A stretch of DNA of 60,963 bases from a virus (lineage: Duplodnaviria; Caudoviricetes), in the IMG/VR virus record IMGVR_UViG_3300050004_000011, positions 1 to 60,963 of that record, one strand, 5' to 3'. Every line of letters starts with the position of its first letter. Position 1 is the first letter of the stretch. The translations under genes and the position numbers were made by a program. The notes beneath the pieces were generated by a model. That model was not told the origin of the DNA. It worked only from the letters and a program-made list of their open reading frames with translations, and searched no databases. Below are positions 2,793 through 9,901 of this stretch, one piece after another.

Positions 2793-4352
2793 TCACCGTC
2801 GGTTGGCGATCTTCGCCAGGTTCTCTCGGTACCGCCTCGATTTGTCCGCGAGGCGGTCCAGGGCCTGGGTGGTGGTGTCAACGTGATCGTCGTGGGTGAA
2901 CCGGGGGAACTTGATGTGCTCCTCCCTGACCACGTCGGCGCCGATGATGTACTCGATCTTGTCCACCTTGCGCGAGTCCCCGGGCGGGTACACCACCTGC
3001 CCTGACTCCCACTTCTCGGTGTGGACGTGGTAGCGCTCCTCCTTGGACCCCTGCGGCTCCACGCCCTTGATGCCGGGGAATTTTGATTGCATCTCCTCGA
3101 TGATCGCTGGACCGTTTGCCTTGAGCTCGATCAGCTTGATTTTTGCCCGGTGCCAGTGCGGGCGGGACTGCGCGAGCGTGAACTGCGCCTTGGACGCCAC
3201 GTAGTTCCAGTGCCCACCGACCCAGTCGATCAGACAGTACATCTCCGGGCGCCCCTCGAGCTTGCGCACGATGTAGTCATTTTGGGTGTTGGGCACGCGC
3301 GCCATGCGGTCAGCCAGGCTGCTGAAATACTCACGCACCTCGGCCAGGTCGCGGGTCACGCACCAGAGCTCGCCAGCCACCTTGCTGTGGCTCTCCTTGG
3401 TGCCCTTCGACGAGAAGTCCCACGACTGCACGAAGGTGCCCTTGGTGGGCGCGGAGATCCACTCGAGGCGCGTCCAGGACTCCTCCACGAAGCCGCCAGT
3501 GGCAGGCGTCGGGTCCTGCTGTAGTTGCGCCGAGGCCTCGTTCTTGAGCTTGATCTCCTGGGCGCGTACACGCTCCTCAGGGAACAGTTCCGGCCAGAGC
3601 AGTTCGCCCACTTCCTTGCGCGGGTCGCGAGCCCACATGCTGCGTTTCACCTGCCGTGCCGGCAGGACCAGGCTCTCGTAGCCCTCCGCGATGCACCGCC
3701 CCGCCAGGTCATTGCTGTGAACCCTTTGCATCACGACAACAATCCAGCGCTTAACGCGGGTCTGCAGGGTGCCATCAAACCATGCATCAACTTTCTTGAA
3801 TGCTGCCTCGCGCCCCAAAATTGCATCTTGAGGTTTGAGTGGATCGTCGATGATGATCCCGTCAACGTGACGTCCGGTTCCCTTCCCCTCTGGACTCGTA
3901 TTAAATCGAAATCCACCACGCGAATTTTTGAACTCGCGCAGAGCTGGCGCCTCCTTGCGCAGCTTCACGTACGGATAAGCAGTCTTGTATCGAGCATCGT
4001 TCAGGATGCTGATCATTTGCTCGCTTTGGTTGTTGAGCAGTGACTGGTCGAAGCTGCCCGCCAAAAAGCTGCAGCCCGGATCAAGTGTCCAGAACCATGC
4101 GGGCCAGAAGACGCCTACCATTTTGCTTTTGCTATGGCCGGGAGGAATGTTGATCACGAGGCGCTTGACTTCGCCCAACGTGACTGCGGTCAGATATTCG
4201 CAAATGGCCTCAAGATGCCAATTATCCAAAAAGTCTCGGGGGTCTGTGACGCCCCAGAACTGGCGGACAAATTCGTGTAAACCGCCCCGATCGATCAACT
4301 CCCGCATGATCAGGGCTTCTTCGGGGTCGAACTCGGTGTCGGCGTCAAGCAT
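2793..4352 (-). CDS. terL: Terminase large subunit
   Basis: INIPPGHSKS Walker A, IIIDDP Walker B, QSWDFS and HDDHVD nuclease motifs. Confidence 0.93.
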   Translation of the reverse strand: MLDADTEFDPEEALIMRELIDRGGLHEFVRQFWGVTDPRDFLDNWHLEAICEYLTAVTLGEVKRLVINIPPGHSKSKMVGVFWPAWFWTLDPGCSFLAGSFDQSLLNNQSEQMISILNDARYKTAYPYVKLRKEAPALREFKNSRGGFRFNTSPEGKGTGRHVDGIIIDDPLKPQDAILGREAAFKKVDAWFDGTLQTRVKRWIVVVMQRVHSNDLAGRCIAEGYESLVLPARQVKRSMWARDPRKEVGELLWPELFPEERVRAQEIKLKNEASAQLQQDPTPATGGFVEESWTRLEWISAPTKGTFVQSWDFSSKGTKESHSKVAGELWCVTRDLAEVREYFSSLADRMARVPNTQNDYIVRKLEGRPEMYCLIDWVGGHWNYVASKAQFTLAQSRPHWHRAKIKLIELKANGPAIIEEMQSKFPGIKGVEPQGSKEERYHVHTEKWESGQVVYPPGDSRKVDKIEYIIGADVVREEHIKFPRFTHDDHVDTTTQALDRLADKSRRYRENLAKIANRR

Positions 4353-4389
4353 GTGTAGTCATTTCAGGTAGGCCGGGATCCAGCGTCCA

Positions 4390-4569
4390 GTTGCAGATTC
4401 CAGGGCCTGCACGCCCTTTGGTTTGTGCCGCGGAGCACACCGCACTGACGTTCCTGCTCCCGTTGCAGATTCCAGGGCCTGCACGCCCTTTGGTTTGAGT
4501 GCATTGCTTGGCGCCGCGCAGGACGCCCGCACCGTTGCAGATTCCAGGGCCTGCACGCCCTTTGGTTTG
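4390..4569 (-). CRISPR. Mini CRISPR array: 3 identical 36-bp repeats, two 36-bp spacers
   Basis: Repeat (minus strand) CAAACCAAAGGGCGTGCAGGCCCTGGAATCTGCAAC at 4390-4425, 4462-4497, 4534-4569; unique spacers 4426-4461 and 4498-4533; 7 bp after the nuclease stop. Confidence 0.95.
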
Positions 4570-4576
4570 TCGTCAT

Positions 4577-5860
4577 TCACGCAGCCAAGGATATCGAGGC
4601 TTTGTGGAGGATGTTGCGAGCGGCGTTGATATCCGCGTCTTCGACGTGTCCGCAGCCAGGTGCTACGCACGTGTAGAGTTTGCCGTTCCTGGCTTCTTTC
4701 GCCACGTTGCCGCAATGCGAGCAGGTCTGGCTGGTATAGGCGCAATCCACCTCTCGCACGCGGTCACCAAGTCGCAGTTTGATGACATCCAGCGTCGCGT
4801 GCATGTAGGACAGCCCGCCTGTGTTGCTCTTGAAGTTCTTCGCAAGTTTCTCAACAGCAACGAACTCGTGGAGCTCAAGGCGCGGTAGTAATTCGGAGTG
4901 CAGCCAGTGTACCACGCGACGCTTGTCTGCTTGGTCGATGCGGGCAATCTTGCGGCGCGCACCAACGATCTGCTCAGGACAACGACTCAGGTCAGCCACC
5001 GACTGCAGGGCCGCTCGCGCGGTACGTGCCAGCGCAGTGCGGTCATTTTTCTTGGTGTAACCGTCACTGAGAGCCACCAGATCAGTCTGACCGACATCCA
5101 GCCCGACGCCAGGAGAAACAGGTGTAGTCAGTTTACGCGCAGGCACGATACACTTAACCGCGGCGTACCAACCGTCCGCACGCAAGTTGAGAGTCACACC
5201 CTGCACTTGCTTGCCTGGGATCGGTCGCCGAAGACGTCCCAGCAGAACCATCCCGTTCACCTTGATGCGCGCGTTGTACCAAGGCGCTCCTCGCCGCTCC
5301 CCGTAGAACCCTCCGGTTTCGACCAGAGGTGCGTTCCCCCACACCAGCGGGGCCGGGTCGTTTCTGCGCTTGTAGTTGGCGCGCTTGGTCCTCATCACAC
5401 GCTTTACCGTGTCGCGATACAACACCGCGTTGCCCAGACGACCGTAGATTGAGCGCAGGTCCTGGTACGAATCCTTGCGCCAATCTAGCTCCGGGCGACC
5501 TTTCACAGCGGCGTCGATCTGCTTGTAGTATTTCATCCACACACCCGACGCCAGCACGTCTTTGCAAGCACGCTTGTGCTCGCGCCAGAGCTCTTTGACC
5601 GCCAGTTTTTCTTCGTCAGTCGTTGGCGTCGGGGGGTTCGGAGGCTCTGGCATTACCGGTGCGTCGCCCACCAATTGCTCGCGTTTCGCACAGGCCTTGC
5701 GAGCGTTCTTGACGTCCTCACGCCCACGAACGATGTGGTTGGTGATGTTGCGCACCTCGTCTTGCAGGACGCGCAGGGTTGCGTGTGCTTCCGCGTCGGG
5801 GTAGAGACGGATAAGCTCGACACGTAGTTCGGTGTTCGGTGGTAGTATCAGTTTGTTCAT
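4577..5860 (-). CDS. Compact type V CRISPR effector (TnpB/Cas12f-like RuvC nuclease, 427 aa)
   Basis: N-terminal IRLYP; RuvC-I VGLDVG, RuvC-II VAVEKL, zinc finger TSQTCSHCG...CVAPGC, RuvC-III DADINAARNI; flanked by CRISPR repeats. Confidence 0.92.
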   Translation of the reverse strand: MNKLILPPNTELRVELIRLYPDAEAHATLRVLQDEVRNITNHIVRGREDVKNARKACAKREQLVGDAPVMPEPPNPPTPTTDEEKLAVKELWREHKRACKDVLASGVWMKYYKQIDAAVKGRPELDWRKDSYQDLRSIYGRLGNAVLYRDTVKRVMRTKRANYKRRNDPAPLVWGNAPLVETGGFYGERRGAPWYNARIKVNGMVLLGRLRRPIPGKQVQGVTLNLRADGWYAAVKCIVPARKLTTPVSPGVGLDVGQTDLVALSDGYTKKNDRTALARTARAALQSVADLSRCPEQIVGARRKIARIDQADKRRVVHWLHSELLPRLELHEFVAVEKLAKNFKSNTGGLSYMHATLDVIKLRLGDRVREVDCAYTSQTCSHCGNVAKEARNGKLYTCVAPGCGHVEDADINAARNILHKASISLAA

Positions 5861-5880
5861 GGTTCACACACCGTTGTCTA

Positions 5881-5916
5881 GTTGCAGGTTAGAGGGTCTG
5901 CACACCCTGTGAATCA
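5881..5916 (-). CRISPR. Solo degenerate repeat upstream of the effector, followed by a 20-nt guide-like segment (5861-5880)
   Basis: 26/36 identical to the array repeat; stem AGGGT/ACCCT replaces AGGGC/GCCCT; GTGCAG loop and CTGCAAC end invariant. Confidence 0.85.
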
Positions 5917-7611
5917 AAGCCACAGGCGCCCACCCCTCATCGTCAAAATCGCTCGCTTGCCATTATGGTAGACAACGGTGTGCGAAACGCTCCACGAGCT
6001 CGGACCGTGTGCGTATGGCAGCCGCCTGTTGCACACCCCCGATGAGAACACGCCGTCGCGGATGCACGCCTTGTGGCTGTGCCCCTTCACGATGCGTGTG
6101 GCCATGCGCGAGTACGCCGCGTCGCTGCCGCGCGAGCCATCAGGGCCTCGATCGCCGTGGAGTCCGCACTCGACGGGGTGGTCCGGCGGCCCCACCACGA
6201 AGGACTCATCGCCGCCCAGGAACCGGGCCAGGCTTCCGACGCCATGCCGCTGCATCGCCCACTCCAGGAAGTGCCACCCCTGCCCCTCGCGCAGCGCGCG
6301 GACGCGCGCCAGCTGGGCCTCGAGGTAGAGCTCGGCGTTGGGCAGGTCGGTCTTATAATCCGCCTCGTCCAGCCAGCGCTCTCCGTGAACGTCGTGGTTG
6401 CTCGCCACCACGACTGTCTGGCAGAAGTCACGGTGGGCTAGGTGCAGCAGCGTTGCGGTCACTTTGAGCTCGGCCTCCACGGTGTCGACATCAGCGCCAC
6501 CGATGTGCTTGGCGAAGCGCGCCGCGAAGGACTTCACCTCGTGGTGGCTCCGGTTGCGAAATGAGAGCGTGTCGTGCCAGAGTTGCACTCGGGGCCGCAG
6601 GGTGTCGATCACGCTGTCGGTTCGCCCCCAGTTCAGAGCGCGGACCGCAGGATCAATCTCGCTCGCGTGTATGTCTCCCCAAGATATGGCTTCGACGCGG
6701 TGTCCGCGGGTCACCTGCCCGTCCGCCACGCGGAACGTCAGATCGTGGAACGCGCCGTCGTCGTCCGCGTTCAATTGCCGACACCACCAATTCTCCGAGA
6801 CCAGGTCGACCTCAACAATGAGAGCACCGAACTGGTGATGGAACTCCGCTTTGATGCCCTCTTTTTTGGCGATGTAATTTCGCTGGGTGACGGCGCCGGT
6901 CGTGAAATTCAGCTTGGGCGGGCGCTCACCGATGACCGGCACGCTCTCGAGCGCGATCTTGGCGTGCGGGAAGATGCCCGACGCCGGTCCCGAGTACGAC
7001 TCCAATCCCGATAGTGGGCGGACCGCGGTCGGCAGGATGTTCATTTCTGCGCACCACAGCAGGTCCGGCGCCAAACGCCACTGGCAACTACCGTGCTTCT
7101 GGGGGTCGTCGCAGATGTACTGCTGGATGGCTGGATCGTACCAGAGCCCCTCGTGGTCGCTGCTGCTCGCACGCCCTGCCTTGGTGGCCTTCGCGCCGTA
7201 CGCAGATTTGTTGTAGCTGAACCTAGACACCATGATGCGAGCACCAGTGGCCTCCGCGTACGCTTCCAGGTTTGCCAGGAACTCCGCGTGCACTGGCGTG
7301 TTGTTCTGCGCGCTGGTCAAGATGTAACGGGCCACCTCCGGGCGGTGCGCGCCGGTGCACAGGTCGTTGGGTTGCGGTGCGGGGACGTGCCCGTGCACTA
7401 TCGGGCCGCTGTCGGGGGCCGGTTGCGCGGCGGCGCGGGCGCGGGCCTGCACGGAACGCAAGCGTGACTGAAGTTTGGTGCGCTTCCAGCCGAGCGCCTG
7501 CGCAGCGGTGTTCTGACTGCCGTGCTCCACCAGGGCCTCGATGGCGGTGCGCTCGGTAGTGCTCATGGGGAGATCGAGCAGGCTGGCGTACGGGTTGATG
7601 GGTGCGGTCAT
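5914..7611 (-). CDS. HTH plus metallophosphoesterase-fold protein (T5 A1-like nuclease)
   Basis: ILTSAQNNTPVH, WGDIH, SNHD, HGD, GHSH motifs; N-terminal HTH; start at MTAPINP. Confidence 0.7.
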   Translation of the reverse strand: MTAPINPYASLLDLPMSTTERTAIEALVEHGSQNTAAQALGWKRTKLQSRLRSVQARARAAAQPAPDSGPIVHGHVPAPQPNDLCTGAHRPEVARYILTSAQNNTPVHAEFLANLEAYAEATGARIMVSRFSYNKSAYGAKATKAGRASSSDHEGLWYDPAIQQYICDDPQKHGSCQWRLAPDLLWCAEMNILPTAVRPLSGLESYSGPASGIFPHAKIALESVPVIGERPPKLNFTTGAVTQRNYIAKKEGIKAEFHHQFGALIVEVDLVSENWWCRQLNADDDGAFHDLTFRVADGQVTRGHRVEAISWGDIHASEIDPAVRALNWGRTDSVIDTLRPRVQLWHDTLSFRNRSHHEVKSFAARFAKHIGGADVDTVEAELKVTATLLHLAHRDFCQTVVVASNHDVHGERWLDEADYKTDLPNAELYLEAQLARVRALREGQGWHFLEWAMQRHGVGSLARFLGGDESFVVGPPDHPVECGLHGDRGPDGSRGSDAAYSRMATRIVKGHSHKACIRDGVFSSGVCNRRLPYAHGPSSWSVSHTVVYHNGKRAILTMRGGRLWL

Positions 7612-9273: not shown

Positions 9274-9522
9274 TCACTCCCCTCCCTCGGTGAGGTCACT
9301 CGGATCGCCGCGCCAGATGGGGGTACTCTCGTCCCCGGACGTGTGCTCACTGACTCGAAGAATGGTACCCTTCAGTAGTTTGACCCATGCGGTCAGATCG
9401 TGCAGCTCGATTGGGTCCACGTTGTCGTAGAGCTCCTCGGTGGCGGCCTCCACGAGCTCGCGGAAGGCCTCGGGGGTCAGCTGGGTGTGTCGGGTGCGGG
9501 GGTATCGGTTGGTGTTGCTCAT
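9274..9522 (-). CDS. Hypothetical protein directly downstream of a solo repeat
   Basis: ATG at 9522, 30 nt after the repeat. Confidence 0.55.
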   Translation of the reverse strand: MSNTNRYPRTRHTQLTPEAFRELVEAATEELYDNVDPIELHDLTAWVKLLKGTILRVSEHTSGDESTPIWRGDPSDLTEGGE

Positions 9523-9552
9523 GATACTTTCAGGCGGTGTGGAAGGTGTGGT

Positions 9553-9588
9553 GTTGCAGATTCTACGGCCTGCACGCCGTGTGGTCAT
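9553..9588 (-). CRISPR. Second solo repeat, ~3.7 kb from the effector, followed by guide-like ACCACACCTTCCAC
   Basis: 29/36 identical to the array repeat; compensatory stem ACGGC/GCCGT; intergenic. Confidence 0.88.
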
Positions 9589-9589
9589 T

Positions 9590-9901
9590 TCATCCAACAA
9601 CGTTGCTGAGGAACACGTTGTGATCGGGGTCGTAGGGTTGGGGGCTGTCTGCGTCTAGGATCGAGATGTCCGTCTCGATGTAATGAAAGGTGTGGTCAAA
9701 TCGATGGGTGATGGTGCGGGGCGGGCCGCCGCGATCGGGCCGCCGGTGGAACTCGGCCACGAACTGCCCGTTGCCGCCGACCCGGAAGTGGTCGAACAGA
9801 GCCCACTCACTCTCGGGCACGCTCTCGACCCACTTCATGATGGTGGGCACCAAGTCGGGGCGCCAGTTGCGAGCAAGTCCGATGATTGAATATGAGTACA
9901 A
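9590..9901 (-). CDS. Hypothetical protein containing the self-match of the solo-repeat guide
   Basis: ORF with AAAGGA RBS before a TTG start. Confidence 0.6.
   Translation of the reverse strand: MYSYSIIGLARNWRPDLVPTIMKWVESVPESEWALFDHFRVGGNGQFVAEFHRRPDRGGPPRTITHRFDHTFHYIETDISILDADSPQPYDPDHNVFLSNVVG

What the first reader, a model, noticed from the sequence alone, without database searches (positions are those of the whole stretch)
4074..4389. Cryptic guide after the last repeat matches a synonymous allele of the adjacent terL
Seen: the first 18 nt after the terminal repeat (minus strand, 4389-4372) read TGG ACG CTG GAT CCC GGC. The phage's own terL (4091-4074) reads TGG ACA CTT GAT CCG GGC. 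Both encode WTLDPG; identity is 15/18 and all three mismatches are third positions, two of them G in the guide versus A/T in self. The site is preceded by TTC. Inference: the guide cuts terL of related phages ~300 bp from the cassette insertion point while self is protected by recoding, as free-standing homing endonucleases do.
Basis: partly seen in the sequence, partly recalled or inferred. Interest (0 to 1): 0.9.

Follow-up and report, generated by a model that had tools for sequence, protein, structure and literature searches.

The report
Phage nuclease guide aimed at rival terminase
A soil phage carries a tiny RNA-guided nuclease whose last guide is a silent-site variant of the phage's own packaging gene next door, which suggests that it cuts related phages while sparing itself.

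Summary
Minus-strand 4389-4372 follows the last of three identical 36-nt repeats. It matches terL codons 88-93 (4091-4074) at 15 of 18 bases, in frame, with all mismatches at third codon positions and TTC upstream. Random 18-mers reproduce this in 3 of 200,000 trials.

The repeats lie directly 3' of a 427-aa TnpB/Cas12f-like nuclease with an intact RuvC triad. Seven of eight distant IMG/VR relatives have the same ORF-then-array layout, so the 18-mer sits in guide position.

A solitary repeat unit at 9588-9553 shows the same pattern. Its flank echoes the neighbouring gene and fits relatives' alleles better than the phage's own.

In relatives the slot upstream of terL is empty (L005) or holds an endonuclease gene (L085).

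Best reading (about 0.5): guides against related phages' alleles of adjacent genes, giving exclusion and possibly homing-like copying.

Not shown: no exactly matching terL allele was found, because DNA was available for only two relatives. The PAM, the RNA and cleavage are all untested.

This is a new variant of known kinds: virus-borne mini-arrays, TnpB homing, TranC.

The parts
4372..4389 (-). Cryptic guide (U3): the 18 nt directly after the terminal repeat, a synonymous variant of terL codons 88-93.
4353..4371 (-). Rest of the 37-nt trailer up to the terL ATG. It has no terL likeness. It contains CCTGAAA, a 7-mer also present just after the U1 flank.
4390..4425 (-). Terminal (third) 36-nt repeat, identical to the other two.
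4426..4461 (-). Spacer 2 (36 nt). No target found.
4462..4497 (-). Second repeat.
4498..4533 (-). Spacer 1 (36 nt). Its reverse complement encodes a 7-residue run found in TerL relative P0008 (weak lead). Its first 20 nt match an unrelated IMG/VR contig (L174).
4534..4569 (-). First repeat, starting 7 nt after the stop codon of the nuclease ORF.
4577..5860 (-). 427-aa TnpB/Cas12f-like RNA-guided nuclease (P0001) with RuvC D255/E337/D410 and a Zn ribbon.
5861..5880 (-). Flank of pseudo-repeat U2. It is 18/20 complementary to 5969-5988 and ends at the nuclease ATG.
5881..5916 (-). Degenerate repeat unit U2 (26/36), starting at the stop codon of the upstream gene. Its + strand is the only good anti-repeat candidate.
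5969..5988 (-). Partner of the U2 flank, inside the upstream gene. It forms an 18-bp long-range stem.
4074..4094 (-). terL site echoed by the guide (codons 88-93) plus the preceding TTC (Phe87). It lies just after the Walker A loop.
2793..4352 (-). terL (519 aa, P0002). GC3 is 0.63 in codons 1-214 and 0.885 after that.
9553..9588 (-). Solitary repeat unit U1 (29/36 to the array repeat, with a compensated stem), lying between gene A and gene B.
9535..9552 (-). U1 flank in guide position. It echoes gene A and encodes HTFH-T, as relatives do.
9679..9696 (-). Echo of the U1 flank inside gene A (9590-9901). The first 10 nt are exact, the next two mismatches are synonymous, and the 5' flank is TTTG.

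Best explanation
The 18 nt after the last repeat is a real guide-position sequence copied from the terL allele of a related phage.

Shown:
- The phage encodes its own RuvC-intact TnpB/Cas12f-like nuclease. A mini-array abuts the 3' end of that gene on the same strand, and all lie inside the late operon just upstream of terL.
- The repeat carries a 5-bp hairpin kept by compensatory changes, followed by a conserved CTGCAAC end that abuts each spacer.
- The terminal repeat is intact, and what follows it is a synonymous variant of terL codons 88-93.
- A solitary repeat unit 5 kb away has the same design against its own neighbouring gene.

Inferred:
- Read-through transcription yields repeat-handle plus roughly 18-21-nt guide RNAs.
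- The nuclease uses them to cut terL (and gene A) of co-infecting relatives that carry TTN plus the matching allele.
- The phage's own copies escape through mismatches: positions 6, 9 and 15 in terL.
- Because each target lies within 0.3 kb of its guide unit, the result is exclusion of the rival. Where the break is repaired from the guide-bearing genome, the unit or cassette would be co-converted into the rival. That would be an RNA-guided form of the intronless homing of free-standing phage endonucleases.
For: 1. Non-random, allele-like match. It is 15/18, in frame, with third positions only. Random 18-mers do this in 3 of 200,000 trials.
2. At all three mismatched positions the guide carries a base seen in L085 or L005 terL. 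The phage's own allele uses the minor codons ACA and CTT.
3. Guide orientation. Seven of eight related IMG/VR loci have the array directly 3' of the ORF on the same strand, with the conserved hairpin at the spacer-proximal side. Hairpin covariation: 20 of 20 cells paired and 2 of 5 pairs compensated, although only 4 sequences were available.
4. The nuclease is intact. PF07282 scores 55.5 bits against a cut-off of 26.3. D255, E337 and D410 are invariant in 27 of 27 family members. D255 aligns to D191 of ISDra2 TnpB. The fold matches AsCas12f/TnpB at E 2.6e-14.
5. Second case. The U1 flank echoes gene A with the first 10 nt exact, followed by two synonymous mismatches. It then reads Thr where the phage's own gene has Tyr and both known relatives (2 of 2) have Thr. 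The local baseline for a 10-mer recurrence is 0.62% of positions.
6. Both echo sites are preceded by TT at positions -3 and -2 (TTTG, GTTC).
7. Context. The cassette is absent from the syntenic relative G001/L005. The same slot holds an endonuclease ORF in L085 (phrog_3322, E 9.6e-29). Inteins lie at Walker A in P0043/P0049. There is a GC3 break in terL at about codon 214 (p 9e-12).
8. Precedent. Virus-borne mini-arrays target related viruses close to the array, and the carrier's own loci hold point mutations (PMC6858448, passages read).
Against: - No exactly matching terL allele was found. The IMG/VR exact search gave 0 hits. The degenerate search of GTDB contigs gave 1 hit, which is not terL. 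The two relatives with DNA match at 15/18 and 14/18, no better than self.
- Only 3 of 46 clade TerL proteins have F-WTLDPG at all.
- Only 18 of the 37 trailer nt are terL-like, whereas the true spacers are 36 nt.
- The PAM is unknown. The one exact 20-nt hit of spacer 1 has flank AAT, and the U2 partner has flank TGG.
- No tracrRNA has been settled.
- There is no Cas1 and no TnpA, so how guides are acquired is unexplained.
- The GC3 break is not unique: 14% of 200-codon windows in the genome are as low.
- The orphan units in the five other viral loci examined (L175-L178, L180) show no echo.
- U2 matches self, not relatives, so not every unit fits the model.
Confidence: 0.5

Rival explanations
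1. Relic. The 18-mer is the stump of an old terL-derived spacer or guide. It was once aimed at rival phages and was later truncated by the deletion that set the cassette's 3' border. It now has no function.
For: Only 18 of 37 nt are terL-like, while the true spacers are 36 nt. It is the unit farthest from the ORF. No matching target was found.
Against: The terminal repeat is perfect, not decayed. TnpB-type guides are about 16 nt (PMC8612924, passages), so 18 nt is a full guide for this kind of enzyme. U1 and U3 share CCTGAAA right after about 18-21 nt, as if the guide were a bounded module.
Confidence: 0.2
2. Transposon-type flank or recombination scar. The cassette descends from an IS200/IS605-like element once inserted after TTC inside a terL gene. 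The 18 nt is a piece of that old flank, carried along when the cassette moved to its present slot.
For: TnpB guides are by definition the DNA flanking the right end (PMC8612924). TTC precedes the terL site, and TTC also lies at the left border of U2 (TGATTC). The best sequence match of the protein is ISDra2 TnpB.
Against: An insertion at codon 88 would destroy an essential gene. The left flank shows no terL likeness. There is no TnpA in the genome. This scenario needs several extra rearrangements. U1 shows the same allele-like echo without any nuclease gene next to it.
Confidence: 0.12
3. Self-regulation. The repeat-plus-flank RNAs guide the nuclease to bind, without cutting, partly matching sites in the phage's own genes and so tune late-gene expression. 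This would resemble the crRNA-like regulators of Cas genes and the TnpB-derived repressors (the comparison is recalled, not tested here).
For: The echoes lie within 0.3 kb in the phage's own genome. U1 has a 10-nt and U2 a 14-nt perfect PAM-proximal match to self. The units sit 20-37 nt before start codons.
Against: The terL echo has only 5 matched bases before its first mismatch, which is too few for an R-loop. The U1 flank fits relatives better than self at its distal end. The RuvC triad is intact. U2 lacks the TT flank and forms an 18-bp RNA stem instead.
Confidence: 0.1
4. Chance resemblance in a GC-rich genome, noticed after the fact.
For: A site with 3 or fewer mismatches somewhere in the window is expected 0.13 times. 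The length of 18 nt was chosen post hoc.
Against: Only 3 of 200,000 random 18-mers match terL with third-position mismatches only. An independent second case exists at U1.
Confidence: 0.03

Closest known systems
Virus-borne mini-CRISPR arrays in interviral conflict (portogloboviruses SPV1/SPV2; Medvedeva et al. 2019, PMC6858448, passages read)
   Same: Arrays of 1-2 spacers in a viral genome without adaptation genes. Spacers aim at closely related viruses. The targets lie close to the array. The carrier's own orthologous locus has point mutations that prevent self-targeting.
   Different: Those arrays borrow the host's Cas proteins and use host repeats. Here the phage brings its own hypercompact nuclease. 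The guide in question follows the terminal repeat instead of lying between two repeats. A solitary repeat unit also carries a guide. The matching rival allele has not been found here.
TnpB/omega-RNA (reRNA) of IS200/IS605 elements and transposon homing (Karvelis et al. 2021, PMC8612924, passages; review PMC13565253, passages)
   Same: A nuclease of about 400 aa with a RuvC triad and Zn ribbon. The guide is the roughly 16 nt of DNA that follows the element's structured right-end RNA. The RNA gene abuts or overlaps the 3' end of the ORF. The cut is proposed to trigger recombinational copying.
   Different: No TnpA is present. The right-end module is multiplied into a regular 72-nt array. The guide does not match the empty insertion site; it matches a site 0.3 kb away inside a neighbouring gene. 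Self is told from non-self by substitutions, not by presence or absence of the element.
TranC / compact type V effectors, including a Caudoviricetes-encoded TranC9 whose spacers hit phages (bioRxiv 10.64898/2026.03.27.714800, passages; the original paper by Jin et al. 2025 is not in the library)
   Same: A TnpB-sized effector next to a short CRISPR array with repeats of 32-38 nt. No cas1/cas2. Found in phage genomes, with superinfection exclusion as the proposed role. LaTranC appears among the sequence and fold matches.
   Different: The clade assignment was not tested. No tracrRNA was identified. Neither the trailing guide nor solitary guide units are described in the passages I read.
Free-standing homing endonucleases of phages (SegF, SegB, Mob; intronless homing and localized marker exclusion; review PMC13565253, passages)
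   Same: A nuclease gene wedged between conserved genes. The target is in a nearby conserved gene of relatives that lack it. Self is spared by sequence substitutions. Flanking DNA is co-converted. In L085 the same slot holds a protein endonuclease.
   Different: Recognition would be by RNA guide plus PAM, not by protein. Guide units could in principle home without carrying the nuclease gene. None of the homing steps has been shown here.

Membership tests
TnpB / Cas12f-like RuvC nucleases (OrfB_IS605 superfamily) | C-terminal Zn-ribbon/TNB domain | tested here: met
   PF07282: E 6.5e-15, 55.5 bits against a cut-off of 26.3. C380, C383, C398 and C403 are invariant in 27 of 27 sequences.
TnpB / Cas12f-like RuvC nucleases (OrfB_IS605 superfamily) | Split RuvC with a D-E-D catalytic triad | tested here: met
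   D255, E337 and D410 are invariant. D255 aligns with D191 of ISDra2 TnpB, the residue mutated in the D191A control.
TnpB / Cas12f-like RuvC nucleases (OrfB_IS605 superfamily) | TnpB/Cas12f fold | tested here: met
   Model pLDDT 86. Foldseek: AsCas12f 8j12 at E 2.6e-14, TM 0.57; ISDra2 TnpB 8h1j at TM 0.63 normalised by target length.
IS200/IS605 transposon | TnpA (Y1 transposase) in the element or genome | tested here: not met
   PF01797 gives no match in the whole 60,963-bp record; the control genomes respond.
IS200/IS605 transposon | Left and right ends with related subterminal hairpins, and a guide that equals the flank of the empty site | tested here: inconclusive
   U2 upstream and the repeats downstream share a hairpin. 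However, the flank matches a site 0.3 kb away, not a reconstructed empty site. In L005 the slot differs by an N-terminal extension of terL.
Type V CRISPR-Cas / TranC | Cas12/TnpB-like effector adjacent to a regular repeat-spacer array | tested here: met
   Three identical 36-nt repeats with a 72-nt period, starting 7 nt after the ORF. The same layout occurs in 7 of 8 related loci.
Type V CRISPR-Cas / TranC | tracrRNA with an anti-repeat (needed by most compact subtypes) | tested here: inconclusive
   The only strong partner of the repeat is the + strand of U2: -46.5 kcal/mol against a background mean of -24 and minimum of -38. Its transcription is unknown.
Type V CRISPR-Cas / TranC | Adaptation module (cas1/cas2) | tested here: not met
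   PF01867 (Cas1) gives no match in the record. This is common for virus-borne and TranC loci, so it does not exclude membership. Cas2 was not searched.
Type V CRISPR-Cas / TranC | crRNA-guided, PAM-dependent DNA cleavage | not testable with these tools
   Needs an RNA and cleavage assay.
Virus-borne mini-arrays for interviral conflict | Spacers match related viruses | tested here: inconclusive
   The guide matches relatives' terL at 15/18 (L005) and 14/18 (L085), and no exact match was found. The U1 flank fits relatives' residue in 2 of 2 cases. Spacer 1 has a 7-residue run in TerL P0008, at p about 0.006. Spacer 2 has none.
Virus-borne mini-arrays for interviral conflict | The carrier's own orthologous site is mutated | tested here: met
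   Three synonymous mismatches in terL. Five of 18 mismatches in gene A.
Free-standing homing endonuclease (intronless homing) | Nuclease gene between conserved genes, absent from syntenic relatives | tested here: met
   G001/L005 is syntenic genome-wide at about 65-75% nt identity and lacks the cassette.
Free-standing homing endonuclease (intronless homing) | Cleavage of the rival allele and co-conversion of the nuclease gene | not testable with these tools
   There is only an indirect hint: a GC3 break inside terL at about codon 214, which is not unique in this genome.

The most novel reading that the evidence does not exclude
The nuclease and its repeat-guide units form an RNA-guided version of free-standing homing endonucleases. 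Each unit's guide cuts the allele of the adjacent gene in related phages within 0.3 kb of the unit, and recombinational repair copies the unit into the rival. For the array this would also copy the nuclease gene. The solitary unit at 9588-9535 would then be a non-autonomous, 'guide-only' homing element that exploits a nuclease encoded 3.7 kb away. The whole arrangement would be a living intermediate between TnpB transposon homing, phage homing endonucleases and CRISPR arrays.
Probability: 0.25. Interest if true: 0.9.

Novelty: new variant of a known kind. Interest (0 to 1): 0.7.

Why it matters
If the reading holds, it links three fields that are usually treated separately: transposon-encoded TnpB homing, the free-standing homing endonucleases that shape phage genome mosaics, and the origin of type V CRISPR arrays.

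- It would show that the sequence after a terminal or solitary repeat, normally ignored in array annotation, can be a working guide.
- It would explain why virus-borne spacers tend to hit loci close to the array, a proximity left unexplained in PMC6858448.
- It would give a natural example of self/non-self discrimination by synonymous differences in an essential gene.
- It would add a 427-aa nuclease family with a short handle to the set of compact RNA-guided enzymes. The family is rare: 16 clusters at E 1e-30 or better among 1.84 billion representatives.

Tried and rejected
Search for the guide-matching allele
- The exact 18-mer in IMG/VR gave 0 hits.
- A back-translated pattern (WP.W.WTLDP) over GTDB contigs gave 1 hit. 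It lies in a non-terL frame and was rejected as chance.
- TerL-profile scans of IMG/VR and of metagenome contigs kept 80 loci each, but only one close relative each (L005 at 66%, L085 at 61%).
- Single-protein scans found none.
- GenBank phages: no DNA match, and TerL identity at most 34%.
- BLAST of the array against G001 gave nothing.

Spacer targets
- The first 20 nt of spacer 1 match L174 exactly, then the match stops (23/36). The site is in an ORF of unknown function with flank AAT. I treat it as probably chance.
- Spacer 2 has no hit.
- There are no near matches in the window, L005, L085 or G001, and no peptide-level match of 7 residues or more in their six frames.
- The 7-residue TerL run of spacer 1 is kept only as a weak lead. 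The null reached it in 29 of 5,000 and 30 of 5,000 trials.

Sequencing runs
- Four DNA runs were listed, and no RNA holder was listed.
- Laying X1-X4 gave only short pieces. There was nothing readable at 4074-4091 in the part of the output shown, and 103 rows of differences were not shown.

Nuclease family context
- The close family (26 proteins at 50-69% identity) could not be placed on DNA. It is absent from GTDB contigs, PLSDB and GenBank phages.

Other ideas dropped
- The trailer as a remnant of the terL N-terminal extension: "TLDPGLPE" against "ALPPPLPE" is 5 of 8 residues, but there is no DNA likeness to L005. Dropped.
- Rfam: no family.
- The promoter/terminator scan gave nothing usable for the minus strand near the array.
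- Two L167 spacers with 15/18 self-matches have mismatches in mixed codon phases. I judge them chance.
- Orphan units in L175-L178 and L180 show no echo and have no nuclease nearby.
- A 20/31 repeat-like hit in G001 lies in coding sequence and is at chance level.
The correct place is 5969-5988.

Limits on papers
- Supplements are closed. Supplementary Table 5 of bioRxiv 2026.03.27.714800 and Supplementary Data 2 of PMC6858448 may bear on targets and self-mutations.
- For "not in print" I rely. "Intronless homing" + "RNA-guided" + "phage" returned 2 papers, and neither reports such a system.
Full report
**What the window is.** The window is a whole IMG/VR virus record of 60,963 bp, 63% GC, rated complete by CheckV. 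It has an integrase at 570-1856. It has no DNA-level relative among GenBank phages.

**Layout of the region (minus strand).**
- A 636-aa "DNA transfer protein" gene, 7824-5914 (phrog_1745, E 4.3e-159).
- A degenerate repeat unit, U2, at 5916-5881, which starts at that gene's stop codon.
- 20 nt of flank.
- A 427-aa ORF at 5860-4577.
- 7 nt further on, three identical 36-nt repeats separated by two 36-nt spacers.
- A 37-nt trailer.
- terL, with ATG at 4352 and stop at 2793 (519 aa; phrog_38, E 4.5e-56).

**The observation.**
- They agree at 15 of 18 bases, and both encode WTLDPG.
- The mismatches are at positions 6, 9 and 15, all at third codon positions.
- TTC precedes the terL site.
- The site lies just after the Walker A loop (PPGHSKSK).
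- The likeness ends at 18 nt.

**Is it chance?**
- The tool expects 0.13 sites with 3 or fewer mismatches per window.
- Of 200,000 random 18-mers with the window's dinucleotide statistics, 0.127% hit the terL sense strand. Only 3 hit it with all mismatches on third positions.

I take the 18-mer to be derived from a terL allele.

**The nuclease.**
- Pfam finds the Cas12f1-like TNB domain at 55.5 bits against a cut-off of 26.3.
- The protein belongs to a small family: 26 full-length relatives at 50-69% identity, and 16 clusters at E 1e-30 or better among 1.84 billion representatives.
- D255, E337, D410 and four Zn-ribbon cysteines are invariant in the family.
- D255 aligns with D191 of ISDra2 TnpB.
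- A model with pLDDT 86 is closest in fold to AsCas12f and to the ISDra2 and ISFba1 TnpB structures. LaTranC, Cas12p and Cas12m follow.
- The genome has no Cas1 and no Y1 transposase.

**Orientation of the guides.**
- The only relatives with DNA are 8 IMG/VR loci at 27-32% identity.
- In 7 of them an array of about 72-nt period starts within a few bases of the ORF's stop, on the same strand. The conserved hairpin lies at the spacer-proximal (3') part of the repeat.
- L165 has a repeat like the window's.
- Across the array repeat, U1, U2 and the L165 repeat, the 5-bp stem is paired in 20 of 20 cells. Two pairs are changed on both sides. The sample is only four sequences; 17 of 500 shuffles do as well.

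So whatever follows a repeat on the minus strand is in guide position, including the sequence after the last repeat.

**Relatives of the phage.**
- TerL has a clade of about 50 proteins at 56-80% identity. DNA could be fetched for only two: L005 (66%) and L085 (61%).
- At the site, L005 reads TGGACACTCGACCCCGGC (15/18 to the guide). L085 reads TGGACGCTGCAGCCTGGT (14/18, with the first nine bases exact).
- Each base at which the guide differs from self therefore occurs in one of these two relatives.
- The phage's own allele uses ACA (12.7% of Thr codons) and CTT (9.6% of Leu codons). The guide has the common ACG and CTG.
- At the protein level, F-WTLDPG occurs in 3 of 46 clade members: the window, P0013 and P0017 (= L005). 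In P0013 the next residue is Leu, matching the guide's next codon.

**The slot upstream of terL.**
- G001, the record that holds L005, is syntenic with the window genome-wide at about 65-75% nt identity and lacks the cassette.
- The upstream genes of both end alike (...LWL*). In L005, terL starts 1 nt after that stop and has a 66-aa N-terminal extension that the window lacks. That extension gives only weak HTH hits, below the Pfam cut-offs.
- In L085 the same slot holds a 175-aa endonuclease ORF (phrog_3322, E 9.6e-29; endonuclease VII and HNH families also match).
- Two TerL relatives carry an insertion after the Walker A lysine, 12 codons upstream of the site. It has Pfam PF14528/PF14890, which I recall as LAGLIDADG and intein-splicing domains; the tool printed no names.
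- terL of the window has GC3 of 0.63 in codons 1-214 and 0.885 after that (best change point, Fisher p 9e-12). The first value is close to the nuclease ORF's 0.69. However, 14% of 200-codon windows in my crude gene set are as low, so this is only a hint of a co-converted tract.

**A second case in the same genome.** A scan for degenerate repeats found a solitary unit, U1, at 9588-9553 (29/36 to the array repeat; stem changed as in L165). It lies between gene A (9901-9590) and gene B (ATG at 9522). The window holds five units in all, all on the minus strand.
- The U1 flank (9552-9535) echoes gene A at 9696-9679. The first 10 nt are exact. The next mismatches are TTT/TTC and CAT/CAC, both synonymous.
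- The flank then reads Thr where the phage's own gene has Tyr. Both known relatives of gene A (2 of 2) have Thr there.
- The echo is preceded by TTTG. This shares TT at positions -3 and -2 with the GTTC before the terL site. Both arise from a Phe codon.
- G001 has gene A and gene B homologues but no such unit.
- Local baselines in the window: a direct 10-mer recurrence within 300 nt occurs at 0.62% of positions, and a 15/18-or-better match within 400 nt at 0.69%.
- In L167, a solitary degenerate repeat is followed by a flank that matches a site about 105 nt upstream at 23 of 25 bases.

**U2 is different.** Its flank (5880-5861) is the reverse complement of 5969-5988 inside the upstream gene (18/20, first 14 exact).
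- It resembles self, not relatives.
- Its partner has no TT flank.
- Together they form an 18-bp stem (-57.5 kcal/mol, z -5.18) that ends 2 nt before the nuclease start codon.
- The + strand of U2 is also the only good anti-repeat for the array repeat.

I leave U2 as an RNA structure, possibly for translational coupling, RNA processing or a tracrRNA. It is not explained.

**How it most likely works.**
- Shown: the anatomy, the intact catalytic residues, the guide position, and the allele-like nature of the U3 and U1 flanks.
- Inferred: read-through transcription of the late operon; processing to repeat-handle plus roughly 18-21-nt guides (TnpB guides are about 16 nt; PMC8612924); cleavage of TTN-flanked matching alleles in co-infecting relatives; and escape of self through mismatches.
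- Because each target lies within 0.3 kb of its unit, repair from the unit-bearing genome would copy the unit. This is the logic of intronless homing as summarised in PMC13565253.
- The more modest outcome is exclusion of rivals, as shown for virus-borne mini-arrays. In that case the authors noted both self-protecting point mutations and an unexplained closeness of targets to arrays (PMC6858448).

**What weighs against it.**
- No exactly matching allele was found in anything I could search.
- The PAM, the RNAs and cleavage are untested.
- The acquisition route for guides is unknown.
- Spacers 1 and 2 have no secure target.
- U2 does not fit the model.

**Comparison and novelty.**
- The effector-plus-array is a member of the known world of TnpB-derived compact type V/TranC systems. 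These include a phage-borne TranC9 whose spacers hit phages (bioRxiv 10.64898/2026.03.27.714800, passages).
- The targeting of related viruses near the array, with self spared by substitutions, is known for archaeal virus mini-arrays.
- What I did not find in print: a guide after the terminal or a solitary repeat, aimed at the adjacent essential gene's allele, in a slot otherwise used by protein homing endonucleases.

**Verdict.** New variant of a known kind. Interest 0.7. Confidence in the main reading 0.5.

Noticed in passing
window 9535-9588 (-) and 9679-9696 (-): A solitary repeat unit (U1) lies between two small genes. Its flank echoes the upstream gene (first 10 nt exact, then two synonymous mismatches). 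At its distal end it reads Thr as in both known relatives, not Tyr as in self.
   Followed up: yes
window 5861-5990 (-): The degenerate repeat U2 starts at the upstream gene's stop codon. Its 20-nt flank pairs with 5969-5988 in an 18-bp stem (-57.5 kcal/mol, z -5.18) ending 2 nt before the nuclease ATG. The + strand of U2 is the only strong anti-repeat candidate. Its function is not explained.
   Followed up: partly
window 2793-4352 (-): There is a sharp synonymous-composition break inside terL: GC3 is 0.63 in codons 1-214 and 0.885 after that. GC dips to 0.54-0.57 at 3600-4400. This may be a co-conversion tract next to the cassette, but the genome is mosaic elsewhere too.
   Followed up: partly
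L085 4468-4995 (+): In a relative, the same slot between the DNA-transfer gene and terL holds a 175-aa endonuclease ORF (phrog_3322, E 9.6e-29; endonuclease VII and HNH families also match).
   Followed up: partly
proteins P0043, P0049 (TerL relatives): A large insertion follows the Walker A lysine (K75|S76 in window numbering), with precomputed Pfam PF14528/PF14890. It looks like an intein with a homing endonuclease, 12 codons upstream of the guide-echo site.
   Followed up: partly
L005 5743-5940 (+); TerL relatives P0003, P0004, P0006, P0008 and others: Many clade TerL proteins, including the closest two, have a 60-100-aa N-terminal extension with a conserved helix-turn-helix-like stretch (only weak Pfam hits). 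The window's TerL lacks it and starts 37 nt after the array.
   Followed up: partly
L167 292-421 (+): In a distant relative's contig, 4.6 kb upstream of its nuclease gene, a solitary degenerate repeat is followed by a flank that matches a site about 105 nt upstream at 23 of 25 bases.
   Followed up: partly
L168 6645-6679 and L169 6014 onwards: Two different viral contigs with different arrays share the same 20 nt after their last good repeat. In L168 a decayed repeat follows it, so this is an old conserved terminal spacer.
   Followed up: no
window 4353-4371 and 9522-9534 (-): The U3 and U1 flanks both carry CCTGAAA right after the echo segment (guide positions 22-28 and 19-25). No Shine-Dalgarno-like sequence precedes the three downstream start codons.
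   Followed up: no
L176, L177, L180 (IMG/VR): Single copies of a closely related hairpin-plus-CTGCAAC motif occur in other viral contigs without a nuclease gene in the fetched stretch. One follows a tRNA-like 3' end, and L177 has two copies 995 nt apart.
   Followed up: partly
window 5110-5281: A contig of another soil metagenome run (X4) matches the nuclease ORF with 1 difference in 172 nt. A second piece matches at about 90%. The gene therefore occurs beyond the source sample.
   Followed up: no
window 4390-4569 (+): Read on the + strand, each repeat scores as a terminator-like hairpin followed by a T-rich run (3 of the 6 sites found in 4000-6300). This may block antisense transcription or may be coincidence.
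   Followed up: no
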